Origin: a virus
Strand: one strand, 5' to 3'
Length of the DNA stretch: 64,000 bases
IMG/VR virus record: IMGVR_UViG_3300029305_003918
Shown here: positions 1 to 25,305 of the stretch, piece after piece
Position numbering within the stretch: the stretch's first letter is position 1
Layout of the letters: each line of letters opens with the position of its first letter
Position numbers and translations under genes: made by a program
Notes under the pieces: generated by a model
The model's database searches: none
What the model was told of the DNA's origin: nothing
Seen by the model: only the letters and a program-made list of their open reading frames with translations

Positions 1-467
1 TCGCACCACTTGCGGTAAGTGGGCATCGGGGCGACCACATCACGAGCCATTGCCAGCGTGTCCCAAATTTCAACGCCCTTCGGGAAGAAGTAGCGATACT
101 TGGAGCAGGTTTCGTAACGCTGGGTCATCGTGCAGGAGCGATAGTCGAATCGGGCATTGTGGGCGATAACTGCCTTGATGTTGTACTTTTCGCAACAGTC
201 GCGGAACGCCTTGCGGATTTCGTACCACGTTGCAACCTTGATTTCGCCGCGTTCAATCTGTTCAAGATACTGCGGAATCTTGTGGGCGTAGTATGCGGAC
301 TGCATGAGTTCGGGACGGTCAAAGAAAATGTCGCGGTTGATGAAATTGAAGTTTTCGTAGGTGTTGCCGTGCTGGTCAATTACAGACCATGCGGTATTGT
401 AGTTGATGGGGCAATCCAGACCGTTGGCAGTTTCAGTATCCATCAGAATGTAGAAGTGGCGATTCAT
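1..467 (-). CDS. DnaQ-like DEDDh 3'-5' exonuclease, N-terminal part (the C-terminus runs off the left edge of the window)
   Basis: Minus-strand ATG at ~467, 9 nt after the conserved SD AAAGAGGTAA. The translation MNRHFYILMDTETANGLD... contains an Exo I motif (DTE) and an Exo II motif (AHNARFDY). The gene is not in the ORF track because it is truncated by the window edge. Confidence 0.65.
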   Translation of the reverse strand, partial: MNRHFYILMDTETANGLDCPINYNTAWSVIDQHGNTYENFNFINRDIFFDRPELMQSAYYAHKIPQYLEQIERGEIKVATWYEIRKAFRDCCEKYNIKAVIAHNARFDYRSCTMTQRYETCSKYRYFFPKGVEIWDTLAMARDVVAPMPTYRKWC

Positions 468-511
468 TTTGCATTACCTCTTTCTTGTTCTATTGCCTTT
501 CGACATTATCT

Positions 512-540
512 ATTATAGCAGATGTTGGGCTGTTTGTCAA
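512..540 (-). promoter_or_regulatory. Consensus sigma-70/sigma-A promoter for the exonuclease gene
   Basis: On the minus strand: TTGACA, then 17 bp, then TATAAT. An UP-like A-tract (AAAAAAAGTTTCAAAAAGG) lies upstream. Confidence 0.7.
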
Positions 541-570
541 TACCTTTTTGAAACTTTTTTTCGGGAAGAT

Positions 571-594
571 GGGGCAGGGTTTTACCCCTGCCCC
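571..594 (-). terminator. Intrinsic terminator hairpin after the 601-954 gene
   Basis: The palindrome GGGGCAGGG-TTTT-ACCCCTGCCCC lies directly 3' of the stop on the minus strand. Confidence 0.5.
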
Positions 595-600
595 GCAAGG

Positions 601-954
601 TCACTTCACCAGAGTGAAGTAAGCCTTGCGCTTCTCTTCCAGTCGCTGAACCTTGCCAGCTTCCACCAGCTGGCGAACCAGCGAAGCGACCTTCTGATTG
701 GAGAGCTGGGACAGCTCTTCATCAGCCTGCATCAGTTCAGACACAGTCACAGGCTGGGCGCAGGAAGCCAGCACTTCCAGCACATGGGACTTCACGCCCT
801 CATTCGCCTGCTGGGTCTTGGTGGGCTTCTTCTCCGCAGAGTTACGCTTGACCTGCTGGTCACGCAGAGCAGACAGCTTCTCACGCACTTCGGCAGACAG
901 AGCTTCGCAGTTCAGAGCAACTTCCAGAGCCTTCACATAAGTCATCTTTTCCAT
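601..954 (-). CDS. Hypothetical small protein (117 aa). It is a paralogue of the gene at 4142-4510 and has a possible winged-helix C-terminus.
   Basis: Track ORF with a consensus promoter plus SD upstream and a hairpin terminator downstream. Shares the motif SNQKVASLVRQLVE.GK..R.EEKRKAYF with the 4142-4510 product. Confidence 0.6.
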   Translation of the reverse strand: MEKMTYVKALEVALNCEALSAEVREKLSALRDQQVKRNSAEKKPTKTQQANEGVKSHVLEVLASCAQPVTVSELMQADEELSQLSNQKVASLVRQLVEAGKVQRLEEKRKAYFTLVK

Positions 955-1035
955 GATTCATTACCTCTTTCTTTCTTGTCGATTGGTGTTAGTGACTGTC
1001 GAGTGGGGCTGGCGCCTTGCCCTTTCGACATCCTT

Positions 1036-1064
1036 ATTGTACCACACCTTGCGGTGTTTGTCAA
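1036..1064 (-). promoter_or_regulatory. Promoter for the 601-954 gene
   Basis: TTGACA-N17-TACAAT with a TGG extended -10. The shared UP element and GTCGAAAGGG initial transcribed sequence are present. Confidence 0.65.
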
Positions 1065-1156
1065 GGGGTTTTTGAAACTTTTTTTTTGAGTTTTTATCCT
1101 GTGCGCTTCAGCGCCGAAGGGTTCCTCTTGCAGTTCCTTGCCCTCTTGACACTATC

Positions 1157-1185
1157 AGTATATCACATCTTGGCGGCTTTGTCAA
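1157..1185 (-). promoter_or_regulatory. Tandem promoter copy with no ORF of its own
   Basis: TTGACA-N17-TATACT with the UP element. Only ~60 nt separate it from the next promoter copy. Confidence 0.5.
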
Positions 1186-1266
1186 GGGTTTTTCAAAACT
1201 TTTTTTGAAGAAGTTTTGTCGACCAGCTTCACTCGGCATCACCTCAGTGCCCTCCTGACATTATCT

Positions 1267-1295
1267 ATTATACAGTATCAGACCCCAAATGTCTA
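1267..1295 (-). promoter_or_regulatory. Degenerate third tandem promoter copy
   Basis: TAGACA-N17-TATAAT. The same flanking CGACATTATCTATTATA context as the promoter at 512-540. Confidence 0.35.
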
Positions 1296-1344
1296 TTGAC
1301 AGATTGCACAAAGTTTCGGGAAAAAGTTTGTGCAGTTTGCCTAT

Positions 1345-1373
1345 TGACAAATTGCTCGAAAAATGGTATAATG
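1345..1373 (+). promoter_or_regulatory. Plus-strand consensus promoter convergent on (antisense to) the AbrB-like gene
   Basis: TTGACA-N17-TATAAT on the plus strand. It is preceded by a direct repeat of CTATTGACAnATTGC and an 8-bp inverted repeat TGCACAAA/TTTGTGCA. Confidence 0.55.
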
Positions 1374-1420
1374 GAAGGATACGCGGGAAAACCGGCGCCC
1401 ACGCTCGTGGGCGCGCGGGC

Positions 1421-1449
1421 GAAAAAAGAGTGACCTTGCGGTCACTCTT
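1421..1449 (-). terminator. Intrinsic terminator after the AbrB-like gene
   Basis: 9-bp stem AGAGTGACC/GGTCACTCT followed on the minus strand by TTTTTT. A second GC hairpin lies at 1394-1414. Confidence 0.6.
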
Positions 1450-1714
1450 CACAGCGGATGGGGTCATCGAGGTGGTTCACCATTTCGCAGATCAGTTCCT
1501 GCCGCTTTGCGGTGCTCAGGCTTTCCCACTCAGACTGCAGGCGGTCAAAGCTCAGATGCTCTTCATGGTAGGGCTTCATCACAAGCCCGTATTCCTTGTC
1601 CAGATACATCTCAAGGGGATCGCCCTCTTTGATGTTCAGGTTCCTGCGGATTTCCTTGGGGATAACAATGCGACCCAGTTCATCGACTCTTCTTACAATA
1701 CCAGTTGCTCTCAT
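1442..1714 (-). CDS. AbrB/SpoVT-family (swapped-hairpin) DNA-binding regulator, ~90 aa
   Basis: N-terminus MRATGIVRRVDELGRIVIPKEIRRNLNIKEGDPLEMY closely resembles AbrB/MazE N-domains. The start was chosen by SD spacing; the track's longer N-terminal extension overlaps the promoter. Confidence 0.65.
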   Translation of the reverse strand: MRATGIVRRVDELGRIVIPKEIRRNLNIKEGDPLEMYLDKEYGLVMKPYHEEHLSFDRLQSEWESLSTAKRQELICEMVNHLDDPIRCEE

Positions 1715-1744
1715 GTTCATTACCTCTTTCCTTTTGATGTACTT

Positions 1745-1773
1745 ATTATACCACATGTGAGAGGGGTTGTCAA
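1745..1773 (-). promoter_or_regulatory. Promoter for the AbrB-like gene
   Basis: TTGACA-N17(..TGG)-TATAAT. The -35 hexamer sits at the centre of the palindrome GGGGTTGTCAACCCC. Confidence 0.65.
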
Positions 1774-1781
1774 CCCCTTTC

Positions 1782-2255
1782 TCACAAATTTTTGCTTTCA
1801 GTCACAAAGTATTTTGCATCATAGCTCTGTAACAGTTTCTTAACATTCAGACTGTCCTGCTGAGTGGGACAATAGAAGTTAAACAAGAAATACTTTTCGA
1901 TGTTCACATAGTTGTAAGTGAATCCATAGTATTTGCAATCTTCAATCATCTGTTCTGCTTGTTCGGCAGGAATGGTGACTTCGACTTTCCAGAGTTTGTC
2001 TTTTCTTGCCTTTTCTTCAAAATACTTGACCACATACACACCCACAAGGTTACAGCCTGCGACAATCAGCGCCTTGGTGGCAAGAGGCAAATCGCACATC
2101 ATGTAGACAGTGACCACAGTGTAGAGTCCGAAGGCAACAGCGTTAACAATCGCGGCGACCCCTTTTCCGCATTTGATGGTTGCAATGCTCTTGACGGTCT
2201 GAATGATAACATTGGCGATGTTCAGCAGGATGAAGGTGAGAAGCAGAGTGTTCAT
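1782..2255 (-). CDS. Hypothetical membrane protein (157 aa; N-terminal transmembrane helices)
   Basis: Track ORF with hydrophobic N-terminal segments, an SD, and a consensus promoter at 2288-2316. Confidence 0.55.
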   Translation of the reverse strand: MNTLLLTFILLNIANVIIQTVKSIATIKCGKGVAAIVNAVAFGLYTVVTVYMMCDLPLATKALIVAGCNLVGVYVVKYFEEKARKDKLWKVEVTIPAEQAEQMIEDCKYYGFTYNYVNIEKYFLFNFYCPTQQDSLNVKKLLQSYDAKYFVTESKNL

Positions 2256-2287
2256 TGTGTTACTTCCTTTCGTCTTTCGTTGTACTT

Positions 2288-2316
2288 ATTATACCATAGG
2301 TTCGGCAGGTTGTCAA
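2288..2316 (-). promoter_or_regulatory. Promoter for the 1782-2255 gene
   Basis: TTGACA-N17(..TGG)-TATAAT plus the UP element. Confidence 0.65.
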
Positions 2317-2340
2317 TACCTTTTTGAAAATTTTTTTCTT

Positions 2341-2372
2341 GCAAAGGGCTGTCACACAGGACAGCCCTTTGC
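2341..2372 (-). terminator. Hairpin, possibly a terminator, after the 2352-2666 gene
   Basis: 12-bp stem GCAAAGGGCTGT/ACAGCCCTTTGC overlapping the stop codon. No clean U-tract follows; it abuts the next UP element. Confidence 0.35.
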
Positions 2373-2666
2373 ATACTTCTGATTCTTCTTGATTTTCTGT
2401 GCCATCCAGTTCGGCATGTGCAAGCCTGCGGACTTGTAAATCATGCCAGCCTGTTCAAGAGTGGGAATGTAAGCAGTCACCATGGTTTCGCTTTCCGGCA
2501 TCTTGACAATCAGCACACCAGTTTCGGACAGGCACTGCCGAGTGCCCTTGTCTCTGCGGAAACCTTCGCACACAATCTTGTCACCGAAGCCAATCTTCTG
2601 TGCAATGTACACACAGCGGTCAATGCGGTCTACCATAGCGTGTTTGGTCATTTCGATCTTCATCAT
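2352..2666 (-). CDS. Hypothetical protein (104 aa)
   Basis: Track ORF. Promoter at 2708-2736. A 12-bp-stem hairpin overlaps the stop codon. Confidence 0.55.
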   Translation of the reverse strand: MMKIEMTKHAMVDRIDRCVYIAQKIGFGDKIVCEGFRRDKGTRQCLSETGVLIVKMPESETMVTAYIPTLEQAGMIYKSAGLHMPNWMAQKIKKNQKYAKGCPV

Positions 2667-2836
2667 TTTTGTTTACCTTCCTTTCTGTTGTCCCTTTCGA
2701 CATTATTAGTATAGCACACTTTGGGCTGTTTGTCAACAGCTTTTTTCTGATTTTCCAGATTTTTTTTCATGGCATTCATTGCCGCCACTCTCATAGCGGT
2801 CTGACTTGCAACAATAGCACCGATCATGATACCCAT
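2663..2836 (-). CDS. Small hydrophobic protein (57 aa), uncertain
   Basis: SD AAGGAGTGA then ATG at ~2836. Its TGA stop overlaps the downstream gene's ATG (ATGA overlap). Its coding sequence runs across the promoter of the next gene. Confidence 0.35.
   Translation of the reverse strand: MGIMIGAIVASQTAMRVAAMNAMKKNLENQKKAVDKQPKVCYTNNVERDNRKEGKQK
2708..2736 (-). promoter_or_regulatory. Promoter for the 2352-2666 gene
   Basis: TTGACA-N17-TATACT. The spacer shares AACAGCCCAA with the promoters at 512 and 5092. Confidence 0.6.
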
Positions 2837-2865
2837 GTTTATCACTCCTTCATTTGATACATTTA

Positions 2866-2894
2866 TTATACCACAGGGGAAAGGCTTTGTCAAG
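2866..2894 (-). promoter_or_regulatory. Promoter for the 2663-2836 and 2352-2666 genes
   Basis: TTGACA-N17(..TGG)-TATAAT. The -35 is flanked by the inverted repeat GGGAAAGGC/GCCTTTTCCC. Confidence 0.6.
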
Positions 2895-3228
2895 CCTTTT
2901 CCCAAATTTCTTTTGCCATCTGATAGCGTCCGCTGTTGTCGCCATGTGCAGTGATGTAATCATGCCCAATGTGGCGACTTGCAATTTCAAATTCTTTCAA
3001 GCCGCCATCCCACAGGCACACCAGCAACTGAAGTAGATGCACAGGCAGGAACAGGAGCAGATACACAGGCCAGCTAATCTTGCAATCGCGGCGATAGTCG
3101 GGGTTGCCATCTGCAGAATAGGCACCAGCTTCGGTCAGAGAGTAGGAGCAGAGGGGACGAAGCCACTTGGCCGCAGGATTGTACTTGCCGATGTAGGTCC
3201 AGTCATTCAGAGAAATCTTCTTAGTCAT
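2890..3228 (-). CDS. Hypothetical protein (112 aa) with a hydrophobic central segment
   Basis: In-frame ATG at 3228 after an SD. The track's 199-aa version extends across the promoter and is rejected. The TGA stop is embedded in the -35 TTGACA of the next promoter. Confidence 0.55.
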   Translation of the reverse strand: MTKKISLNDWTYIGKYNPAAKWLRPLCSYSLTEAGAYSADGNPDYRRDCKISWPVYLLLFLPVHLLQLLVCLWDGGLKEFEIASRHIGHDYITAHGDNSGRYQMAKEIWEKA

Positions 3229-3265
3229 TGTAGTTACTTCCTTTCTTGTTCCTTTTGATGTACTT

Positions 3266-3294
3266 ATTATACCATGCTCAGAGGGATTTGTCAA
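3266..3294 (-). promoter_or_regulatory. Promoter for the 2890-3228 gene
   Basis: TTGACA-N17(..TGG)-TATAAT. A perfect 10-bp inverted repeat GCTCAGAGGG/CCCTCTGAGC brackets the -35. Confidence 0.65.
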
Positions 3295-3313
3295 CCCCTC
3301 TGAGCAACTTTTT

Positions 3314-3565
3314 TTAGGCATCTGCCCAGCTGATGTGCAGGCTGGATTCACACCAACGAACCTTGTAACCTGCTTCAACCATAGTGTTGTATACCTTGGA
3401 CTGGATGCGAGGGTCGGCACCGCTGAGACCATTGCTGTAATACATGGAGGTGTTGCCCTTGCTGGCATAGATCTGAATGGTGTCTTCAATCTTCTGCAGG
3501 TGCTTGTCAGCTTCGGCGGTCAGGTAGTTGGTGGTCATGGTCTTAGCTTCTTTGGCAGTCATCAT
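3314..3565 (-). CDS. Hypothetical protein (83 aa)
   Basis: Track ORF with promoter at 3616-3644 and an SD. Confidence 0.5.
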   Translation of the reverse strand: MMTAKEAKTMTTNYLTAEADKHLQKIEDTIQIYASKGNTSMYYSNGLSGADPRIQSKVYNTMVEAGYKVRWCESSLHISWADA

Positions 3566-3615
3566 AGTAGTAACTTCCTTTCTGTTGGGACTCTGTGTTC
3601 CCTTTCGATGGTTTA

Positions 3616-3644
3616 ATTATAGCAGATTCGGGATGATTTGTCAA
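3616..3644 (-). promoter_or_regulatory. Promoter for the 3314-3565 gene
   Basis: TTGACA-N17-TATAAT plus the UP element. Confidence 0.65.
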
Positions 3645-3743
3645 TACCTTTTTTGCAAGTTTTTCAAATTATTTTTTGCTGGCTGGTGCTCCTCGCGGAA
3701 ATTCGGCGAGTGGGCAAGCGCAGCGCCCGCCCACGCGCCGGCG

Positions 3744-3783
3744 AATAAAAAAAGAGTGGGGCTCAGGCTCTGAGCACCCACTC
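3744..3783 (-). terminator. Intrinsic terminator after the 3763-4020 gene
   Basis: Stem GAGTGGGGCTCAG/CTGAGCACCCACTC followed on the minus strand by TTTTTTTATT. Confidence 0.6.
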
Positions 3784-4020
3784 GGGGAGGTTCTCCCACA
3801 GTCGGGAGAGGTGGCAGGTGACCACCGTGGAGCGTTCCCACTCCACATCACCGCCATCCCAGAAGAAGCGGTAGTGGTCGATGGTGACCATGTCACCGTG
3901 GAAGGTGACCTTGACGGTCTCGTGAGAGGCCAGCCAAGAGCCCTTGCCAGTGAACAGGCAGTTGGACTGGGCTTCGAAACCGTAGTTGGCGATCAGGGTG
4001 GCAGCGATGGTGTTCTTCAT
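3763..4020 (-). CDS. Hypothetical protein (85 aa)
   Basis: ATG at 4020 after SD GAGGAGG. The start is trimmed from the track ORF, whose N-terminus overlaps the promoter. A terminator hairpin overlaps the stop. Confidence 0.5.
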   Translation of the reverse strand: MKNTIAATLIANYGFEAQSNCLFTGKGSWLASHETVKVTFHGDMVTIDHYRFFWDGGDVEWERSTVVTCHLSRLWENLPEWVLRA

Positions 4021-4065
4021 GGGGATCCTCCTCGTTGTTCGGGCTCTTGCCCTTTCGTTGATACT

Positions 4066-4094
4066 ATTATAGCACAGGATAGGCAGGTTGTCAA
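4066..4094 (-). promoter_or_regulatory. Promoter for the 3763-4020 gene
   Basis: TTGACA-N17-TATAAT. Directly abutted upstream by a 13-bp-stem hairpin. Confidence 0.65.
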
Positions 4095-4104
4095 GGGGTT
4101 TTTT

Positions 4105-4137
4105 CGGGGTGGTGAAAGTTTTTTTCACCACCCCGCG
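4105..4137 (-). terminator. Hairpin, possibly a terminator, after the 4142-4510 gene
   Basis: 13-bp stem CGGGGTGGTGAAA/TTTCACCACCCCG. The A-tract that follows doubles as the next UP element. Confidence 0.35.
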
Positions 4138-4141
4138 AGGG

Positions 4142-4510
4142 TCAGGCAAGGCGGAAATACGCCTTGCGCTTCTCCTCGATTCGGGTCAGCTTGCCCTCTT
4201 CCACAAGCTGACGGACAAGGCTTGCAACCTTCTGATTGCTCAGCTCGCCCAGCTCGGGAGCAAGGGTCTGAATCTCGCTTACGGTCTTGGCTTCCTGACC
4301 CTCAAGGGCAGTCAGGATAACCTGCTTGATGCCAACGTTGGCTTCCTGAACCTTGGTCGGCTTCTTCTCACCGCTGTTACGCTTCTCCTGCTGAGTACGC
4401 AGGGCAATCAGCTTTTCCGCGATCTCGGTGGGCAGGTTGCCGTTCTCAATGGCGTAGGTCAGGGCGGTCACGTAGGTCAGCTTCTCATTCTTCACATTGA
4501 TAGTAGTCAT
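4142..4510 (-). CDS. Hypothetical protein (122 aa), paralogue of the 601-954 product
   Basis: ATG at 4510 after AAAGAGGTAA. The C-terminal 60 aa are nearly identical in pattern to the 601-954 product. Confidence 0.6.
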   Translation of the reverse strand: MTTINVKNEKLTYVTALTYAIENGNLPTEIAEKLIALRTQQEKRNSGEKKPTKVQEANVGIKQVILTALEGQEAKTVSEIQTLAPELGELSNQKVASLVRQLVEEGKLTRIEEKRKAYFRLA

Positions 4511-4581
4511 AGCGATTACCTCTTTCTTTCCGCGCTCTTGGCGCTGTCGTTTTGTTTTGTTCCTTCCCTTGGAACATCTTA

Positions 4582-4610
4582 AGTATACCACAGGTCGGTC
4601 GGTTTGTCAA
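4582..4610 (-). promoter_or_regulatory. Promoter for the 4142-4510 gene
   Basis: TTGACA-N17(..TGG)-TATACT plus the UP element. Confidence 0.6.
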
Positions 4611-4661
4611 GCCCTTTTTGAAACTTTTTTCAAGTTTTTTTTCGGGGCTTGGGGAAGGGTA

Positions 4662-5066
4662 TCAGCCCTTCCCCTTGTCCTTGGGGGGTCGGTGGGCGGT
4701 CAGCGTAACCGAATAGGAAACGCCGTTCAGCACAAAGTCCACTTGACGCTCGGGGTTGACAACCTCGCAGTTGTCAAAGTCCTTCAATGCGTCGTGCAGG
4801 CAGTCCACCAATAGTCGCTTGTCCTCGTTGGGCTTGCGTTCTCGGGTTCGGGTCTTGCCTGCAGGGTCAACCACCTTGTGAGCCTTGGGTCGGTTCGCCT
4901 TGCGTGCTTCCTTCTCTTGCTCGGGTGGCAAGTCCCATGGGGTAGGGTTGCCCTTGTCGATCTGCTTGTCCCACCATGCCATTTCGGCTTCTTCCAGTGA
5001 GCAACCAGTCTTATCGACCATGGCGTCCAACCACTCAGGGGTAGGATACTGAAGTTCCTTAGCCAT
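4662..5066 (-). CDS. Hypothetical protein (134 aa)
   Basis: ATG at 5066 after SD AAAGGAGG. Promoter at 5092-5120. Confidence 0.5.
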   Translation of the reverse strand: MAKELQYPTPEWLDAMVDKTGCSLEEAEMAWWDKQIDKGNPTPWDLPPEQEKEARKANRPKAHKVVDPAGKTRTRERKPNEDKRLLVDCLHDALKDFDNCEVVNPERQVDFVLNGVSYSVTLTAHRPPKDKGKG

Positions 5067-5091
5067 GTTCTTGACCTCCTTTACATTAACT

Positions 5092-5120
5092 ATTATACAG
5101 CATCTTGGGCTGTTTGTCAA
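5092..5120 (-). promoter_or_regulatory. Promoter for the 4662-5066 gene
   Basis: TTGACA-N17-TATAAT. The -35 lies inside the 10-bp inverted repeat TTGTCAAGGG...CCCTTGACAA. Confidence 0.65.
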
Positions 5121-5151
5121 GGGGTTTTTACGCCCTTGACAAACTTTTTTT

Positions 5152-5721
5152 TCAATCGTTCAGATAGAAGTCAACCCACTTTTCAGCCTGTTCCAGATCA
5201 AACTCAACTTGATAGAAACGATCATTTTTCTGGAAAGTGTTCGGATGCTTGCGGATGTACTTGGAACGCAGGAAACTTTCCAAACCTTCTGCGTCAACTT
5301 CTCCGCAATCCCAAACTTTAGTAACTTCGATCGTTTTGATACCATACTTGCGATAGTAGCGCAGGTGTTCGCTCATGCGTTCTTCAATGGTTCGGGTGGT
5401 CGTGCCGACCTTTGACCAAACCAGATTGCCCTCTTCATTAAGCAGCCGCAGGAGATACACAAGCTGATTGCCCTCTACCTTGTCGCAGGAGTAAACCACG
5501 TTTGCGGTCGGCTTAAAGAAAGACTTTACCTTGTCAACAACGCCCTTGACAAACCGATCAACGATGAAATAGGCATCCTTGACAAAAGTCCAAACCGCAC
5601 GAACAACTTCATTTTCTTCCCACAGAGCAAGCATCTTTTTGAAGTTGTTGTTGCGTCCAGAAGTGGAAGTGCAAGCGCACATGCGGTCGTAGTAGAGATC
5701 CATCAGTTCCAGTGCATTCAT
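5152..5721 (-). CDS. Hypothetical protein (189 aa)
   Basis: ATG at 5721 after SD AAGGTGG. Promoter at 5779-5807. A faint GIY-YIG-like pattern is present but not claimed. Confidence 0.5.
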   Translation of the reverse strand: MNALELMDLYYDRMCACTSTSGRNNNFKKMLALWEENEVVRAVWTFVKDAYFIVDRFVKGVVDKVKSFFKPTANVVYSCDKVEGNQLVYLLRLLNEEGNLVWSKVGTTTRTIEERMSEHLRYYRKYGIKTIEVTKVWDCGEVDAEGLESFLRSKYIRKHPNTFQKNDRFYQVEFDLEQAEKWVDFYLND

Positions 5722-5778
5722 TGTGATTACCACCTTTGTCATTTTGTCTTGTCGGTGTTTCCCTCACCAACTGAGACT

Positions 5779-5807
5779 ATTATAGCATAGGTGGGCAGGA
5801 ATGTCAA
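5779..5807 (-). promoter_or_regulatory. Promoter for the 5152-5721 gene
   Basis: TTGACA-N17-TATAAT. Confidence 0.6.
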
Positions 5808-5842
5808 TAGGTTTTTGAAAAAAACTTTTTTTTCTTTTTCTG

Positions 5843-5871
5843 CAAAAAGGTATTGACATTTGATCCCTCTT
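5843..5871 (+). promoter_or_regulatory. Plus-strand consensus promoter that drives no identifiable ORF
   Basis: TTGACA-N17-TATAAT on the plus strand. It is back-to-back with the promoter at 5779-5807 and is transcribed into the 5878-6290 non-coding region. Confidence 0.6.
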
Positions 5872-5877
5872 GTAGTA

Positions 5878-6290
5878 TAATACTATCAGAGGTTGAGGGA
5901 AGCACAACCACTACGGGCACTGAGGATTCGCGATTACTCGGTGGCAAAACTCTCGCAGGTATCAAGAGCTTCCAGATCGCGGCGAACGGGTAGTGTCAGC
6001 TCGGTTAGCACGCTACGCAAGTAGAAGAGACGTTCAAATCGTCCCCCTAGCCTACGCGATCACTCCACCCCATACATCCACGGCGGTGAAATTCCGCCCG
6101 CGCAAGCGAAGACGAGAGTGGCTCTGTTTTGGGATGGGGCTTGTTTTTGTATGTTTATGCATTGTCGATGAATAATTATGCATGGCCTATGCGTGCGGGA
6201 ATACGGCTGGTGCACAGACTTGGCGCCCGTGCACCAGCCGGCCAGAGGGAAAAGAAATGCAGGATGTGTGGAGTCATCCTGCATTTCATT
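5878..6290 (+). ncRNA. Candidate structured non-coding RNA (~400 nt) driven by the plus-strand promoter at 5843-5871
   Basis: No ORF with an SD is present. Two GNRA-type tetraloop hairpins occur (CTAC-GCAA-GTAG near 6003-6014 and CGC-GCAA-GCG near 6089-6098). A T-loop-like GACG-TTCAAAT-CGTC lies at 6019-6033. Further stems are at 6072-6088 and 6197-6228. The region ends at the bidirectional hairpin at 6255-6286. Confidence 0.3.
6255..6286 (-). terminator. Intrinsic terminator after the nucleotidase and membrane-protein operon
   Basis: 12-bp stem AAATGCAGGATG/CATCCTGCATTT followed on the minus strand by CTTTTCCCTCT. Confidence 0.55.
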
Positions 6291-6292
6291 TA

Positions 6293-6532
6293 TCACTTGC
6301 TCTTACTGGAAACATTGGTCTTGAAGATAACCTGCAATGCATTGGTAGCCCAGAAGAACTGCCAGTAGTTCAGGTCAGGCAGGTTGAAGTCCAGCTTTAC
6401 TGCATTGTATCCCATCTGCACAACCCATGGCCCAGCGAAGATGACCAGCGCCAGCACAATCAGCGCCGCAATCACAGTCGCGCATCCAGAGTTATCACTA
6501 TTATAACTATTATAACTGAATCCCATAGTCAT
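6293..6532 (-). CDS. Small membrane protein (79 aa)
   Basis: Track ORF with a hydrophobic core and SD AAGAAAGAGAGG. Likely co-transcribed with the 6562-6999 gene. A strong terminator follows it. Confidence 0.5.
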   Translation of the reverse strand: MTMGFSYNSYNSDNSGCATVIAALIVLALVIFAGPWVVQMGYNAVKLDFNLPDLNYWQFFWATNALQVIFKTNVSSKSK

Positions 6533-6561
6533 TTACCTCTCTTTCTTGTTGCTCTCTGCAC

Positions 6562-6999
6562 TCAGCGAGTGAGTGCAGAGAGAGTGGCGAAGATAGTTTC
6601 GGGAGTGAACGCCTTGCCCTGTTCCCATGCGTTGCGGTTGCGCTCTTCATCATCGAAGAGAATGCCGCTCTTGCAGGTGTCCCACTTGTTCTGCCCATAG
6701 GGAACGATCTCCACCACATCCCAATGAACAGAAGGCAGATGCTTGGCGAGCCATGCGAGCTTGGCGGCTCGGACTGCTTCATCATAGGCAAGAGTGCTTT
6801 CCTTGCTACACCAGCTGATGATGCAGAGTTCGTGTCCCTGTGCCTGTGCCCTGTTGAGCATCCTTGCCAGCGTTGCCATGTGGTGCATGGGCTTTGCCAT
6901 TGCGTAGGGTGCAGGGTCGTAAGCTCGGAGCATCTGAAGCCATCCATCAACCGCATACAGGTCAGCAATCGTACCATCCATATCGAACCAGATCTTCAT
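6562..6999 (-). CDS. HAD-superfamily 5'(3')-deoxyribonucleotidase-like protein (NT5C family)
   Basis: N-terminus MKIWFDMDGTIADLY matches HAD motif I (DxDGT). A downstream DD motif is present. Size is ~145 aa. Confidence 0.6.
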   Translation of the reverse strand: MKIWFDMDGTIADLYAVDGWLQMLRAYDPAPYAMAKPMHHMATLARMLNRAQAQGHELCIISWCSKESTLAYDEAVRAAKLAWLAKHLPSVHWDVVEIVPYGQNKWDTCKSGILFDDEERNRNAWEQGKAFTPETIFATLSALTR

Positions 7000-7046
7000 T
7001 CTCATTACCTCTTTCTGTGTTTTGTCTTGTCCCTTTCGACACTATT

Positions 7047-7075
7047 AGTATAGCACGTCTTAGGGTATTTGTCAA
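7047..7075 (-). promoter_or_regulatory. Promoter for the nucleotidase and small membrane protein operon
   Basis: TTGACA-N17-TATACT plus the UP element and the GTCGAAAGGG initial transcribed sequence. Confidence 0.6.
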
Positions 7076-7190
7076 GCCTTTTCCGCAAACTTTTTTATCT
7101 TTTTTTTCGAGGGGGAAGATCGCTCTTCCCTCCTCTGTGCATAGACTTGCTTTTCTTTCCTCTTGACGAGCTTCTTAAACCTTGCGCTGT

Positions 7191-7499
7191 TCATCCTCTT
7201 GCCCTCCTCATGGCTTCGAGCTTCTGCTGGATGCGGTCGAACTTCGCCAACAGTTTGGCATAGCGGCGATCCTGCCAACCCCAGTACATCTGTGCAACAG
7301 CATCCCAGAATGCGCGGGTACTGTAATAGCACTCATGTTCCACCTTGAAAGTGGCAGGTACAGGCTTCTTTTTTTCTGCTTCCAGAAGCCTTGCCATCAC
7401 TCTGTTTGCACCTTTGCGAGTGCGGAACAGACCTACTCTGTGTGCGGCGGTGCGAGTGCGAGTACTTTCTACCTTCGAATACTTCATGAGGATAAACAT
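7191..7499 (-). CDS. Hypothetical basic protein (102 aa)
   Basis: ATG at 7499 after SD GAAAGGAG. Promoter at 7538-7566. Confidence 0.5.
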   Translation of the reverse strand: MFILMKYSKVESTRTRTAAHRVGLFRTRKGANRVMARLLEAEKKKPVPATFKVEHECYYSTRAFWDAVAQMYWGWQDRRYAKLLAKFDRIQQKLEAMRRARG

Positions 7500-7537
7500 T
7501 GCTTTGATCTCCTTTCGTTGTTCCCTTGACACTACCT

Positions 7538-7566
7538 ATTATAGCAGGTTTCAGGATGTTTGTCAA
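7538..7566 (-). promoter_or_regulatory. Promoter for the 7191-7499 gene
   Basis: TTGACA-N17-TATAAT. Confidence 0.6.
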
Positions 7567-7647
7567 TAGGTTTATACAGATTATTTTTGTTAATTATTTG
7601 TTGTGTCTCTTGTTTGTTGGCTAGCTAGGCCCGTGCTCGGTGACCTC

Positions 7648-7926
7648 TTAGATGTCGTAAGAGGTACAACCGAACATGAAGCCCACACCATCAAGCACCA
7701 CTTCATGGTAGAAGTCACCAGTGCCCAGCTCGTCGATGATGTCCTGCACCTGCTCAACCAGCTCAGGCATGGTATAGTCACGGAACTGCTCACACCAGTC
7801 ATCATCGAAGCCGATGAAGTCGATGAAATCCACACAGATTTCAGTGTCGGATTCGCGACGGATTTCAACATCGCCAGCCTGTTCGAGGGTTTCCAGCATG
7901 GTCATCAGCATTTCAGCAGTCATCAT
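7648..7926 (-). CDS. Hypothetical acidic protein (92 aa)
   Basis: Track ORF. Promoter at 7978-8006. SD GAAAGGAAG. Confidence 0.5.
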   Translation of the reverse strand: MMTAEMLMTMLETLEQAGDVEIRRESDTEICVDFIDFIGFDDDWCEQFRDYTMPELVEQVQDIIDELGTGDFYHEVVLDGVGFMFGCTSYDI

Positions 7927-7977
7927 TGTAGTTACTTCCTTTCTTTCAGCTGGGCTCTTGTCCCTTGCTGTGATTAT

Positions 7978-8006
7978 AGTATACTACAACTGACCGCGTT
8001 TGTCAA
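7978..8006 (-). promoter_or_regulatory. Promoter for the 7648-7926 gene (the right-most unit of the array)
   Basis: TTGACA-N17-TATACT plus the UP element. Confidence 0.6.
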
Positions 8007-8282
8007 TAGGTTTTTACAATTTTTTTTATTAAGTTTTAGGATAACACTTAACATGATGCATTCAATGCATTCGCGACGCTTTTGTTGCATGACAGGTTTA
8101 TTGCGCAAACTCGGGGCGTGCCGACCATGCACGCCCCGACGAGCGTTCCAGATGCTGGCAGTACTCTTGTATTTTTTTCTGGTATGTAAATCCATTCAAC
8201 ATTCACCCTCCGGGCACCCTTTCGGGAAAAAAATTATTTTGAAAGAGAAAAGGGGTTATACCTGGTCACAATTCCCACTAAA

Positions 8283-9059
8283 TCAAATTTGAAATCTGGA
8301 AGACGGAGATATATCATCAAAAGTGAGATTGGAAAGTTTAACGGTATAGGGAATTCTAATTAAAGGGATCCCTTGCTCTTTACAGTATACGTTCTTGCGC
8401 TCATCCCGCTCTTTTTGAATTTGTAATTTTTCTTCTCCGCCCCATGCTTCAACAGCCTTAAAATGCTGCTCTCCATCATATTCAATTAAATAAGATAACT
8501 GTCTATTTGAATCAAAAACCGCAAAATCAAACTTTAAACCTGTAGACAGCTCTTCAATGGAATATTGCTCTTCAAATATTACATCAAGATCTTGCAGCAT
8601 TGTCCGCACGTATAGTTCACCAGCAGATACTTGAGAACAGCCACACGATACAGTATATTTATATCCATCTCTATCGCTACCGCGCTTATATCCAGTTAAA
8701 TGGTCTTTTCGCACTGAAACCACATTGCCGCAATCACATTGACATTTAACATAAGAAGTATATCTTCCACCCGCGGTTTTATAAGGTAAATCATATTCAA
8801 TCACTGTTAATTTACCAAACCTATCTCCCATTTTTAAGGCTTGATGACCTCTACCACCTGAAATTTCTCCTGCGGCGATTCTGCAATCAACACAACCCTT
8901 TTCAACATCTTCTTTCCGCAAAATAGCTTCCTTGCCGCATTGATTGCATTTACATAGCAGTGGTGTCGAATGACTCTTCCAAGGTGTCTCTTCTTTAGAA
9001 GGACGCCGAATAACAGTTAATGTCTTAAAAGTTTGACCAATCATTTCTTGCCATTTCAT
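8283..9059 (-). CDS. Zinc-ribbon-rich protein with a C-terminal Vsr/DUF559-like (PD-(D/E)xK) endonuclease domain; possible homing endonuclease
   Basis: Several CxxC pairs. The C-terminal segment LKFDFAVFD...LIEYDGEQH...IPLIRIPY is paralogous to the 13919-14275 product. The start was chosen at a TAATG overlap with the upstream gene. Confidence 0.45.
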   Translation of the reverse strand: MKWQEMIGQTFKTLTVIRRPSKEETPWKSHSTPLLCKCNQCGKEAILRKEDVEKGCVDCRIAAGEISGGRGHQALKMGDRFGKLTVIEYDLPYKTAGGRYTSYVKCQCDCGNVVSVRKDHLTGYKRGSDRDGYKYTVSCGCSQVSAGELYVRTMLQDLDVIFEEQYSIEELSTGLKFDFAVFDSNRQLSYLIEYDGEQHFKAVEAWGGEEKLQIQKERDERKNVYCKEQGIPLIRIPYTVKLSNLTFDDISPSSRFQI

Positions 9060-9457
9060 TATAGATGACATTCTCCTCTCATATAACAATCCATGTGACA
9101 TTGACCACTCTCTGCTTCACAGGGCAGTAAACTTTTCAACACTTCTTCCACATGTCGGCTTTCCGCAAATTTCTGTAGTTCCACCCATCCATGGCGAAGC
9201 AATACTTGCTTCGCCACATAGTGGTTTTTTTCTCTTTCCCAATGCGCGCACTCTTCTTCTGTAGGATAGTCGCTCCAATCTAATTTTTCATCTGGGACTC
9301 TTTTGTACTGGCCAGTATTTACCTCTTTAAACATACTCGCTAGTACTTTATGTTTACGCTTAAAGGGATTTTCTAGTCCCATCGTCGGTGCAACCTCTCG
9401 CATAAATTTTTCTTCTGCGCGCAGAATCGTGCTACCGACGGAGTTAAGGATGAACAT
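9059..9457 (-). CDS. Hypothetical Cys/His-containing protein (132 aa)
   Basis: Track ORF in the leftward operon driven by the promoter at 9821-9849. Confidence 0.4.
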   Translation of the reverse strand: MFILNSVGSTILRAEEKFMREVAPTMGLENPFKRKHKVLASMFKEVNTGQYKRVPDEKLDWSDYPTEEECAHWEREKNHYVAKQVLLRHGWVELQKFAESRHVEEVLKSLLPCEAESGQCHMDCYMRGECHL

Positions 9458-9820: not shown

Positions 9821-9849
9821 ATTATATCAAATTTTTTTTAAATTTTCAA
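9821..9849 (-). promoter_or_regulatory. Leftward promoter for the 9798-8283 operon
   Basis: On the minus strand: TTGAAA-N17-TATAAT. It is divergent from the rightward promoter ~20 bp away. Confidence 0.5.
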
Positions 9850-9867: not shown

Positions 9868-9896
9868 TTGACTCATGAAAATTTTTGTGGTATAAT
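9868..9896 (+). promoter_or_regulatory. Rightward promoter at the start of the late or structural module
   Basis: TTGACT-N17-TATAAT, followed by SD GAAGGAGG. Confidence 0.55.
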
Positions 9897-25276: not shown

Positions 25277-25305
25277 TTGACAAACAAAAAATTTTCTGGT
25301 ATAAT
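25277..25305 (+). promoter_or_regulatory. Internal consensus promoter upstream of the chaperone-like and tape-measure genes
   Basis: TTGACA-N17(..TGG)-TATAAT on the plus strand, immediately after the TGA stop of the preceding gene. Confidence 0.5.

What the first reader, a model, noticed from the sequence alone, without database searches (positions are those of the whole stretch)
1293..1450. Convergent consensus promoter antisense to the AbrB-like regulator gene, with operator-like repeats
A plus-strand TTGACA-N17-TATAAT promoter (1345-1373) is aimed into the 3' end of the minus-strand AbrB/SpoVT-like gene (1442-1714). It is preceded by a direct repeat CTATTGACAnATTGC (at ~1293 and ~1341) and an 8-bp inverted repeat TGCACAAA...TTTGTGCA (1305-1337).

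The plus-strand transcript would pass two hairpins and continue antisense to the regulator gene. This looks like a cis-antisense or transcriptional-interference switch on a transition-state-type regulator. It is reminiscent of type I toxin-antitoxin or immunity switches, but it is not a described arrangement.
Basis: seen in the sequence. Interest (0 to 1): 0.55.

Follow-up and report, generated by a model that had tools for sequence, protein, structure and literature searches.

The report
Antisense promoter in phage boundary cassette
The backward-pointing consensus promoter is real, but it is one half of a mirrored two-promoter cassette that punctuates the early-gene array of a family of uncultured gut Clostridia phages, and it is not a switch dedicated to the AbrB-like gene.

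Summary
It points into two hairpins and the 3' end of the AbrB/SpoVT-like gene (1442-1714, -).

The window is a TAG-recoded phage related to phAss-1. Its first 8 kb is a leftward array of small early genes, almost each with its own consensus promoter.

The 23-mer TTTGTGCANTTTNCCTATTGACA recurs in 86 viral-contig stretches and 24 MAG contigs. About 30 of the modules point against the local array, as here, with a better-kept -10 than the mirrored partner.

The two hairpins are tandem intrinsic terminators for the minus strand only.

The gene facing the antisense promoter differs in every phage. The closest AbrB-syntenic relative (L001) keeps both terminators and the forward promoter but lacks the antisense one.

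Best reading: a position-dependent boundary cassette that launches a non-coding counter-transcript. The mechanism is inferred, not shown.

It resembles the PeSL cassettes of T4-type phages and convergent-promoter or antisense systems. I rate it a new variant of a known kind, of moderate interest.

The parts
1253..1379 (.). Imperfect palindrome of about 125 bp: two mirrored sigma-A promoters set back to back (the cassette core)
   Evidence: The inverted repeats I1, I2 and I4 define it. Window 1255-1410 is 78% identical to L103, L153, L161 and L119, and 1287-1427 is 81% identical to L183, while the flanking genes differ.
1344..1372 (+). Antisense promoter P_right: -35 TTGACA 1344-1349, 17-nt spacer, TGg TATAAT 1364-1372. 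The transcription start near 1379 is inferred.
   Evidence: In 31 homologous modules the -10, which the search pattern did not fix, is TATAAT in 28, and TGn is present in 30.
1327..1349 (+). Class-defining 23-mer TTTGTGCAGTTTGCCTATTGACA: the right TTTGTGCA box plus the -35
   Evidence: The pattern gives 86 stretches in viral contigs and 24 in genome contigs, all of them MAG contigs.
1290..1312 (-). Mirrored, degenerate 23-mer (19 of 23 by my own reading) carrying the left box TGCACAAA (1305-1312) and the -35 TAGACA of P_left (1295-1290)
1267..1295 (-). Forward promoter P_left: TAGACA-N17-TATAAT, 11 of 12, no TGn, with the leader ATAATGTCAGGAGGG
   Evidence: A homologous leader and promoter are present in L001 and L036.
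1392..1418 (-). GC-rich hairpin T2, followed on the minus strand by GGUUUUCC (1385-1393): the second terminator of the abrB unit. It sits 15-20 nt downstream of the inferred P_right start.
   Evidence: Fold. 92.5% identical over 40 nt to a hairpin in L149 that has no antisense promoter. A hairpin of the same size and position follows nearly all promoters of the class.
1420..1449 (-). Hairpin T1 (1426-1449) followed by a run of six T (1425-1420) on the minus strand: the first terminator, overlapping the abrB stop codon. It is not a terminator on the plus strand, where the tail reads CACAGCGG.
   Evidence: The consensus scan missed it because the A-U pairs of the stem absorb part of the T run.
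1442..1714 (-). AbrB/SpoVT/MazE-fold gene of 90 aa, the last gene of the upstream early unit
   Evidence: PF04014 at E = 1.5e-12. phrog_4681. The exact protein is found on at least 23 public contigs.
1745..1773 (-). The abrB gene's own perfect promoter. Its inferred start is about 360 bp from the inferred P_right start, and the two promoters converge.
1036..1185 (-). Two further tandem forward promoters (1185-1157 and 1064-1036) downstream of P_left, with no convincing ORF between them
   Evidence: L103 has the same tandem arrangement.
601..954 (-). First gene of the downstream unit: a 117-aa protein with a C-terminal winged helix-turn-helix
   Evidence: AlphaFold model with pLDDT 83. Foldseek matches to MarR, ArsR, Fur and MecI winged-helix domains at E about 2e-3. 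Homologues hold the same position in L103, L090, L117, L162 and L158.
5853..5881 (+). Second antisense perfect promoter of the array. It is back to back with 5807-5779 (-) and lies behind the minus-strand terminator 6287-6254.

Best explanation
**What it is (shown).**
- The plus-strand promoter is a genuine, conserved host-type (sigma-A) promoter.
- It is the antisense half of a ~125-bp palindromic back-to-back promoter cassette.
- Cassettes of this kind punctuate the one-directional early-gene array of a family of uncultured, TAG-recoded Clostridia phages related to phAss-1.
- Here the cassette sits directly behind a tandem terminator that works in one direction only and ends the upstream unit.

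**How transcription would run (read from the sequence).**
- Leftward transcription of abrB stops at T1 or T2.
- P_left and two tandem promoters restart leftward transcription into the next unit, beginning with a winged-helix gene.
- P_right fires rightward from the foot of T2. The resulting ORF-less RNA starts as the complement of the terminator hairpins.
- T1 and T2 do not terminate in that direction, so the RNA runs antisense into whatever gene ends the upstream unit. Here that gene is abrB-like.

**What it does (inferred).**
- The element acts by position, not by gene.
- RNA polymerase bound at or leaving P_right opposes read-through across the boundary.
- It also damps the 3'-terminal gene of the upstream unit, through polymerase collision and antisense pairing with the mRNA 3' end.
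- The conserved TGCACAAA/TTTGTGCA boxes probably make the pair controllable by a phage DNA-binding protein.
For: **The promoter is real and far beyond chance.**
- It is a 12/12 match with TGn.
- Perfect promoters number 13 in the window against 0.06 expected.

**It belongs to a conserved class.**
- The 23-mer gives 86 viral stretches and 24 MAG contigs.
- A pattern with 21 fixed bases is expected less than once by chance. This is my own estimate: about 0.3 for the 596-Gb genome collection, and the viral collection's size is not known to me.

**The antisense sub-class is coherent.**
- Of 96 matches, 23 point against the local promoter array.
- These share an inverted box, a TTTCGGGAT motif, and a GC hairpin that begins at about the transcription start.

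**Selection acts on the antisense half.**
- The -10 is TATAAT in 28 of 31 modules and TGn is present in 30 of 31.
- The mirrored forward promoter averages only 9.5 of 12.
- The gaps between the two -35 elements cluster at 47-49, 58-61, 65-69 and 80 bp.

**The hairpins terminate leftward transcription only.**
- T or U runs follow them only on the minus strand.
- No consistent same-strand terminator follows P_right in 22 modules.

**It behaves as a cassette.**
- The module is 78-81% identical to L103 and L183, while the genes on both sides differ or are shuffled.

**It recurs as punctuation.**
- The window has two antisense promoters in 8 kb.
- phAss-1 has three in its 8-kb early array.
- Contig 3300031760_000003 carries three modules within 8 kb.

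**The plus-strand RNA looks non-coding and unclassified.**
- No credible ORF is present.
- No Rfam family matches.
Against: - There are no transcript data, so the start site, the length and even the existence of the RNA are inferred.
- No benefit of counter-transcription at boundaries has been shown. The two terminators alone could insulate the units.
- L001 and L149 keep T1 and T2 without the antisense promoter, so the promoter is dispensable in some relatives.
- The forward tandem promoters are constitutive by sequence, which weakens the idea of a tightly regulated downstream unit.
- The search pattern fixed the -35 and the box, so the sampling is biased toward perfect members.
- The hairpins used for the covariation count were chosen by folding, which makes that test partly circular.
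Confidence: 0.45

Rival explanations
1. **A dedicated cis-antisense or transcriptional-interference switch on the AbrB-like regulator.** The plus-strand RNA would specifically set AbrB levels, and AbrB would bind the repeats to close a feedback loop.
For: - The geometry in this window fits. P_right and the abrB promoter are both perfect, lie about 360 bp apart and converge. The terminators stop only abrB transcription.
- AbrB-fold proteins bind DNA (PF04014).
Against: - The facing gene differs in all 21 other modules examined.
- L001/L002 have the order abrB, T1, T2, P_left without the antisense promoter.
- In L158 and L188 the AbrB homologue lies elsewhere relative to the module.
- Of the 80 AbrB-selected loci, the nine whose promoters were listed include one, L007, with a near-consensus convergent promoter nearby.
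- The repeats are class-wide elements, present in phage stretches that show no AbrB homologue: only 10 of 86 box-selected loci carry one.
Confidence: 0.1
2. **A palindromic operator, with the antisense RNA having no function of its own.** The paired TGCACAAA/TTTGTGCA boxes would be the binding site of a phage regulator, for example the winged-helix protein encoded just downstream of P_left. P_right would exist only as the second, co-regulated face of a divergent control region. It might compete with P_left or activate it through supercoiling.
For: - The boxes are conserved and occur in inverted and direct arrays.
- The spacing between the two promoters changes in steps of about 10.5 bp.
- The element is confined to phage contigs, which points to a phage-encoded partner.
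- A winged-helix gene follows P_left in the window, L103, L090, L117, L162 and L158.
- The spacers of the long form of the antisense sub-class carry a conserved GCAAGG motif inside the promoter core.
Against: - No link between box density and presence of the winged-helix gene was seen in promoter-dense loci.
- L183 has the module without that gene next to it.
- P_right is better conserved than P_left. That is unexpected if only the forward side matters.
Confidence: 0.2
3. **An inverted copy of a mobile promoter/stem-loop cassette of the PeSL kind, kept by recombination rather than for regulation.** Its main effect would be to supply homology for shuffling the small early genes.
For: - The array consists of AT-rich upstream tracts, consensus promoters and stem-loops between small orphan genes. 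This matches the PeSL definition (PMC2839356).
- The same module has different neighbours in the window, L103 and L183, and genes change sides of it.
Against: - A functionless inverted promoter should decay. Instead the -10 and TGn are nearly invariant across modules whose spacers, hairpins and flanks have diverged, and they are better kept than in the forward copy.
- The orientation and the position directly behind a terminator are also conserved.
Confidence: 0.15
4. **A promoter for a discrete small RNA or a priming transcript.** The product would be a stable 5'-hairpin RNA acting in trans, or a G-rich transcript that forms an R-loop at a replication origin.
For: - A GC-rich hairpin starts at or near +1 in almost all members.
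- The stem covaries.
- In L090, L117, L154 and L103 the next hairpin has T-rich tails on both sides, which could give an RNA of about 80-100 nt.
- Repeats resembling iterons lie nearby in some phages (L131, L139, L133).
Against: - In the window neither hairpin is followed by a U run on the plus strand.
- The hairpin sequence is not conserved between phages.
- No RNA family matches.
- The hairpin is explained more simply as the terminator of the opposite strand.
Confidence: 0.1

Closest known systems
PeSL (promoter-early stem-loop) regulatory cassettes of T4-type phages (Arbiol et al. 2010, PMC2839356; Comeau et al. 2014, PMC4122927)
   Same: - Both are composite elements: an AT-rich tract, a host consensus promoter and a stem-loop.
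- Both lie between small orphan early genes.
- In both, the stem-loop can overlap the -35, sit in the spacer, or follow the -10.
- In both, the same cassette is found with different neighbouring genes in related phages.
   Different: - The phages here are siphovirus-like and infect Firmicutes, so the lineage is different.
- This cassette is a mirrored pair with a strong antisense promoter.
- It carries a conserved 23-bp class element (TTTGTGCA box plus -35).
- It sits behind a double terminator.
- The mini-circles and recombination described for PeSLs were not tested here.
Lambda OOP RNA / cII (own knowledge)
   Same: - A promoter placed just beyond the end of a regulator gene fires back into it.
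- The RNA is complementary to the 3' end of the mRNA.
   Different: - OOP is a discrete RNA of about 77 nt with its own terminator and a fixed target.
- Here no terminator follows in the window, and the target gene is not conserved between phages.
Face-to-face promoter switches of coliphages P2 (Pe/Pc) and 186 (pR/pL) (own knowledge)
   Same: - Strong promoters converge and interfere with each other.
- Many relatives of this cassette place two perfect promoters face to face across a ~27-nt hairpin (L083, L084, L092, phAss-1 at 130714/130804).
   Different: - In P2 and 186 each promoter drives a regulator-containing operon in a lysis-lysogeny switch.
- Here the antisense side has no gene.
- The arrangement recurs several times in one early array.
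- No lysogeny genes were seen in the region.
Long-terminal-repeat early regions of Staphylococcus Twortvirinae (phage K, Stab23) and the SPO1 host-takeover module
   Same: - Both have arrays of small early genes, each with a consensus sigma-A promoter and an A-tract upstream element (AAAAAAGTTT.AAAAA..TA-TTGACA).
- Stab23 has the sequence 'ttgtgcacaa tatttcgatcg aatttgtgtaaaatttccta TTGACA', which resembles the module.
- Non-coding and antisense RNAs were detected in the phage K repeat by RNA-seq (PMC9241854).
   Different: - The similarity is short, about 80% over 50 nt that include the fixed hexamers.
- No mirrored cassette was shown there.
- The published K RNAs could not be mapped onto an equivalent promoter.

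Membership tests
Sigma-A / sigma-70 housekeeping promoter | -35 TTGACA, spacer of 17±1 nt, -10 TATAAT | tested here: met
   12 of 12 at 1344-1372.
Sigma-A / sigma-70 housekeeping promoter | Extended -10 (TGn), typical of strong Firmicutes promoters | tested here: met
   TGG at 1364-1366. TGn is present in 30 of 31 homologous modules.
Sigma-A / sigma-70 housekeeping promoter | Transcription starts there in vivo or in vitro | not testable with these tools
   No transcript data are available.
Intrinsic (Rho-independent) terminator | GC-rich stem-loop followed directly by a U run on the transcribed strand | tested here: met
   Met on the minus strand. T1 is an 8-11 bp stem followed by UUUUUU. T2 is an 8-11 bp GC stem followed by GGUUUUCC.
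Intrinsic (Rho-independent) terminator | The same feature on the plus strand, which would end the antisense RNA | tested here: not met
   The plus-strand tails are GCGGGCGAAAAAAG and CACAGCGG. No consistent same-strand terminator was found in 22 modules.
PeSL-type composite promoter/stem-loop cassette | Consensus early promoter with an AT-rich upstream tract and an adjacent stem-loop, lying between small orphan genes | tested here: met
   The definition is taken from PMC2839356.
PeSL-type composite promoter/stem-loop cassette | The cassette is shared while the flanking genes are exchanged between related phages | tested here: met
   Comparison of the window with L103 and L183.
PeSL-type composite promoter/stem-loop cassette | Occurs in T4-type myoviruses; recombination between cassettes demonstrated (mini-circles) | tested here: not met
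   The terminase is closest to Geobacillus E3, Enterococcus EF1 and phAss-1, and distantly to SPbeta YonF, so this is an analogue and not a member. Recombination cannot be tested with these tools.
Cis-antisense RNA regulator of a fixed target (lambda OOP/cII type) | Convergent promoter whose RNA overlaps the 3' end of the target mRNA | tested here: met
   By geometry only.
Cis-antisense RNA regulator of a fixed target (lambda OOP/cII type) | The pairing of antisense promoter and target gene is conserved in relatives | tested here: not met
Type I toxin-antitoxin | Small toxic (usually hydrophobic) ORF overlapped by an antisense RNA | tested here: not met
   The overlapped gene is a 90-aa protein of the AbrB/MazE fold. 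No small hydrophobic ORF lies in 1250-1800.
Face-to-face lysis-lysogeny switch (P2/186 type) | Each of the convergent promoters drives a regulator-containing operon | tested here: not met
   No plus-strand gene lies downstream of 1372 within the early array.
AbrB/SpoVT/MazE swapped-hairpin DNA-binding fold (the neighbouring gene) | Match to PF04014 above the curated cut-off | tested here: met
   47.7 bits against a cut-off of 24.7.

The most novel reading that the evidence does not exclude
The TTTGTGCA-box back-to-back or face-to-face promoter cassette would be a previously undescribed punctuation and control element of early transcription in a large family of uncultured, stop-codon-recoded Clostridia phages. 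A phage-encoded DNA-binding protein, for example the winged-helix protein made from the forward side, would bind the paired boxes. It would set the balance between forward restart and counter-transcription, and so time the shut-off of successive early units.
Probability: 0.25. Interest if true: 0.65.

Novelty: new variant of a known kind. Interest (0 to 1): 0.5.

Why it matters
**What it would show if the reading is right.**
- Phages of gut Clostridia would organise their host-takeover genes with a reusable regulatory cassette made of a terminator, an antisense promoter and a forward promoter.
- That would be a Firmicutes counterpart of the T4-type PeSL system, with an added conserved counter-transcription arm.

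**What it offers in practice.**
- A sequence handle, TTTGTGCANTTTNCCTATTGACA, for finding the early regions of these uncultured phages.
- A testable case of natural convergent-promoter insulation.
- A set of very strong, compact promoter and terminator parts for Clostridia.

**A caution for annotators.** Several plus-strand 'genes' annotated inside the early array of phAss-1 may be artefacts of antisense frames.

**For the original claim.** The result is deflationary. This is not a new AbrB circuit.

Tried and rejected
- **Known RNA families.** Rfam at gathering threshold over the whole window found nothing. E-value mode on 900-1500 and 5850-6320 gave only chance-level hits.
- **tRNA and tmRNA.** None found.
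- **Near-identical phages in GenBank.** None found.
- **A plus-strand coding gene behind the promoter.** The candidate ORFs (1458-1571, and the 184-aa frame antisense to abrB) have no ribosome-binding site and are not conserved.
- **A structured RNA behind the second antisense promoter.** Region 5888-6152 folds no better than shuffles, z = +0.74.
- **A host regulon for the box.** The 23-mer is absent from isolate genomes. All 24 genome hits are MAG contigs, five of them 139-182 kb long, which is phage-genome size.
- **Linking the boxes to the winged-helix gene by co-occurrence.** Inconclusive.
- **Spo0A '0A boxes'.**
  - TGTCGAA sits 5-6 nt after the -10 of four early promoters.
  - The heptamer is not enriched in the window, 6 observed against 6.06 expected.
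  - I record it only as part of a conserved polypurine leader.
- **Mapping the phage K non-coding RNAs onto an equivalent promoter.** No convincing match.
- **Literature search for the box sequences.** It returned only unrelated primer sequences.
- **Strain-level variation.** The same phage on other contigs is 99.94% identical, too close to read selection.
Full report

Yes.
- TTGACA lies at 1344-1349, followed by a 17-nt spacer and TGgTATAAT at 1364-1372. This is a 12/12 match with an extended -10.
- Perfect TTGACA-N17-TATAAT occurs 13 times in the window against 0.06 expected from shuffles.
- Ten of the 13 are on the minus strand within 1-8000. Only 1344 and 5853 are on the plus strand there.
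- The direct repeat (1293-1307 and 1341-1355) extends to 23 nt at 83% identity.
- The inverted repeat has 8-bp cores at 1305-1312 and 1327-1334.
- The two hairpins (1395-1414 and 1426-1449) are present.
- The neighbouring gene 1442-1714 (-) is an AbrB/SpoVT/MazE-fold protein: PF04014 at E = 1.5e-12 and phrog_4681.

**2. What is the window?**

It is a phage.
- Positions 1-8000 are 49% GC and carry about 20 small leftward genes. Almost every gene has its own consensus promoter, an A-tract upstream element and a conserved purine-rich leader.
- From about 9.9 kb the sequence is about 35% GC and runs rightward, encoding terminase and structural genes.
- The terminase is closest to a human-faecal phage (63%), then to Geobacillus E3, Enterococcus EF1/VRE9_4 and phAss-1, and distantly to SPbeta YonF.
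- Reading TAG as a sense codon raises long-ORF coverage of the late region from 37.7 to 50.4 of 54.2 kb. The early genes never end in TAG.
- The phage therefore belongs with the code-15 phAss-like phages of Clostridia (PMC10607447). That paper does not mention promoters.

**3. Anatomy of 950-1800, read leftward in the direction of the array**
- The abrB gene's own perfect promoter lies at 1773-1745, followed by the gene.
- T1 is the hairpin at 1449-1426, followed by six T.
- T2 is the GC hairpin at 1418-1392, followed by GGTTTTCC.
- Next comes the reverse complement of P_right.
- Then the paired boxes, and P_left (TAGACA-N17-TATAAT, 1295-1267).
- Two more tandem promoters follow (1185, 1064).
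- Last is a 117-aa gene (954-601) with a C-terminal winged helix-turn-helix.
- On the plus strand neither hairpin is followed by a U run. They are therefore terminators for abrB transcription only.
Its 27-nt arms are 78% complementary, and the symmetry continues to both -10 hexamers. In other words, these are two mirrored promoters back to back.
- The arms also read as a direct repeat because each one is partly self-symmetric around its TTGACA/TGTCAA. This last point is my own reading of the sequence.

**4. The promoter belongs to a conserved class**
- The 23-mer TTTGTGCANTTTNCCTATTGACA gives 86 stretches in IMG/VR.
- It gives 24 stretches in 596 Gb of genome contigs. All are MAG contigs, five of them 139-182 kb long, which is phage-genome size. 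Most are binned with Clostridia such as Oscillospiraceae and Acutalibacteraceae.
- A pattern with 21 fixed bases is expected less than once by chance. This is my own estimate: about 0.3 for the genome collection, and the viral collection's size is not known to me. The box is therefore a phage-specific promoter-class element and not a private operator.
- Nearly all copies continue with N17-TATAAT, followed within a few bases by a GC-rich hairpin.

**5. Two sub-classes**

Members oriented with the local promoter array (39 distinct):
- They usually follow a terminator.
- They carry a hairpin, mostly 27 nt long, starting about 3 nt after the -10 and followed by a T-rich tail.
- Often an opposite-strand promoter sits face to face across the hairpin.

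Members pointing against the array (14 distinct in the first set, about 30 with the MAG contigs; the window is one):
- An inverted copy of the box plus a TTTCGGGAT motif lies upstream, making a mirrored pair.
- The hairpin starts about 7 nt after the -10, which is at the expected transcription start. In the window, L103 and L183 it starts 15-19 nt after.
- GGAAAATT precedes the hairpin. This is the U-tail of the hairpin when read on the other strand.
- No T run follows.

The hairpin stem covaries: 7 of 7 pairs show changes on both sides, and 88% of cells pair against about 40% when the partners are slid. This test is partly circular, because the hairpins were chosen by folding.

**6. Selection acts on the antisense half**
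- The search fixed the -35, but not the -10.
- The -10 is TATAAT in 28 of 31 modules, and TGn is present in 30 of 31.
- The mirrored forward promoter averages only 9.5 of 12.
- The gaps between the two -35 elements cluster at 47-49, 58-61, 65-69 and 80 bp. Steps of about one helical turn suggest that the two faces are physically coupled.

**7. It is not tied to AbrB**
- A convergent ORF ends within 46-138 nt of the -10 in 18 of 22 modules. It is a different small protein in every phage except the window.
- L001/L002 carry the closest AbrB homologue (59%). They keep the order abrB, T1, T2, TGCACAAA box, then a P_left-like promoter with the same GTCAGGAGGG leader, then tandem promoters.
- In L001/L002 the ~45 bp that would hold the antisense -35 and -10 are missing.
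- L149 has a T2/T1 pair 92% identical to the window's, without the antisense promoter.
- In L158 and L188 the AbrB homologue lies kilobases away or on the other side of the module.
- Of the 80 AbrB-selected loci, the nine whose promoters were listed include one, L007, with a near-consensus convergent promoter nearby. It lies behind another gene.

**8. It behaves as a cassette and recurs**
- Window 1255-1410 is 78% identical to L103, L153, L161 and L119, and 1287-1427 is 81% identical to L183.
- The flanking genes differ between these loci. A gene that lies right of the module in the window lies left of it in L103.
- The first gene after P_left is a winged-helix homologue in the window, L103, L090, L117, L162 and L158, but not in L183.
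- The window holds a second antisense perfect promoter (5853). It is back to back with 5807 and lies behind the minus-strand terminator 6287-6254.
- phAss-1 has three antisense promoters in its 8-kb early array. Two are face to face over a GC hairpin and one is back to back.
- One 165-kb contig carries three modules within 8 kb.

**9. What the plus-strand RNA would be (inferred)**
- It would start near 1379.
- It would begin with the complement of T2 and then T1, and continue antisense into abrB.
- No credible ORF is present.
- No Rfam family matches.
- No consistent same-strand terminator was found in 22 modules.

**10. Most likely mechanism**

Shown:
- The promoter is conserved.
- It forms a mirrored pair with a forward promoter.
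- The terminators work in one direction only.
- The module keeps its position and orientation while its neighbours vary.

Inferred:
- The cassette is a boundary element.
- Incoming transcription is stopped by T1 and T2, and the forward promoters restart it.
- P_right supplies polymerase that sits at, and moves away from, the foot of the terminator. This opposes read-through.
- P_right also exposes the last gene of the upstream unit to collision and antisense pairing.
- The terminators shield P_right from the upstream promoters, but nothing shields those promoters from P_right. The interference is therefore one-sided.

I give this reading 0.45. The rivals are:
- a palindromic operator for a phage regulator, with the RNA incidental (0.2);
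- an inverted mobile cassette with no regulatory role (0.15);
- an AbrB-specific switch (0.1);
- a discrete small RNA or priming transcript (0.1).

**11. Comparison with known systems**
- The array as a whole matches the definition of PeSL cassettes of T4-type phages: an AT-rich tract, a consensus promoter and a stem-loop between orphan genes, with shuffled neighbours (PMC2839356). The lineage is unrelated, and the antisense arm and class box are additions.
- From my own knowledge, the antisense geometry resembles lambda OOP/cII. Here, however, there is no discrete terminator and no fixed target.
- Also from my own knowledge, the face-to-face variants resemble the P2 and 186 switches. Here, however, there is no gene on the antisense side.
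- Type I toxin-antitoxin membership fails, because there is no toxin ORF.

**12. Verdict**
- The element is a new variant of a known kind.
- It is of moderate interest as an undescribed, widely conserved regulatory grammar in uncultured gut phages.
- Its function is still untested.

Noticed in passing
window 9800-64000 (+) compared with 1-8000 (-): The late genes appear to read TAG as a sense codon. Long-ORF coverage rises from 37.7 to 50.4 of 54.2 kb when TAG is read through, with up to 42 in-frame TAGs in one merged frame. None of 34 early ORFs ends in TAG. No suppressor tRNA lies in the window. This fits the code-15 phAss-1 clade.
   Followed up: partly
window about 8000: G+C drops sharply from about 49% in the early array (1-8000) to 29-42% in the rest of the window. 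The cause is unexplained.
   Followed up: no
window 500-8010, minus strand: Each early promoter carries an A-tract upstream element (AAAAAAGTTTCAAAAA..TA-TTGACA) and a conserved purine-rich leader starting about 5 nt after the -10 (TGTCGAAAGGGA, or GTCAGGAGGG). Four leaders contain the heptamer TGTCGAA, which is the Spo0A box consensus. The heptamer is not enriched overall. The leader may stabilise the mRNA 5' end or act as an operator; this was not tested.
   Followed up: partly
window 1745-1790, 2865-2900, 3266-3300; L001 1275, 2873, 3940: In many forward promoters the -35 hexamer sits in the loop of a G-run/C-run stem, for example GGGG-TTGACAA-CCCC. These are composite stem-loop/promoter units like PeSLs.
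   Followed up: partly
window 5853-6290 (+): A second antisense perfect promoter is followed by about 260-400 nt with no convincing ORF. The stretch ends at terminator-like sites (6120-6150, or the hairpin at 6254-6287). It has no Rfam match and folds no better than shuffles.
   Followed up: partly
window 9821-9849 (-), 9868-9896 (+), 25277-25305 (+); phAss-1 90-126 kb (L194): A second, very stereotyped promoter class has a conserved AT spacer and leader: TTGACA-tAAAAAAATTTTTgTGn-TATAAT-ATATATAGAAAgTGAG. phAss-1 has about 19 copies ahead of its tRNA and metabolism genes. It may be a temporal (middle) class.
   Followed up: no
window 601-954 (-) and 4142-4519 (-): These are two paralogues (59% identical) of a small early protein. 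Each has a Lys-rich linker (KRNSAEKKPTK) and a C-terminal winged helix-turn-helix. Homologues occur in 49 of the fetched loci, often in several copies.
   Followed up: partly
L007 4600-4960: Near two antisense promoters of another phage lie LexA-type (Cheo-box-like) palindromes CGAACAnnTGTTCG. There are also repeated AATTTGAC motifs and GCAGCT repeats.
   Followed up: no
L168 (Staphylococcus phage Stab23, long terminal repeat) 1985-2051; L169 (phage K) 2463: Early promoters in the Twortvirinae terminal repeat share the A-tract upstream element. One has an upstream sequence resembling the module (ttgtgcacaa..tttcgatcg..tttgtgtaaaatttccta-TTGACA) and fires into an unannotated 500-bp gap.
   Followed up: partly
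L194 (phAss-1) 125970-132788: Several plus-strand CDS are annotated inside the leftward early array of the published phAss-1 genome (for example 130698-131642). They overlap promoter cassettes and may be artefacts of antisense frames.
   Followed up: no
window 8283-9101 (-), 5152-5742 (-), 54391-61704 (+): An HNH or homing-endonuclease-like gene lies at 8283-9101. A T5orf172-domain gene lies at 5152-5742 inside the early array. A 2437-aa ORF lies at 54391-61704 and is probably the tape-measure protein, by analogy with the 3149-aa protein of phAss-1; this was not tested.
   Followed up: no
L195, L196: The same phage, 99.94% identical over 4.7 kb, is present on at least 23 public contigs from several metagenome samples.
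   Followed up: partly
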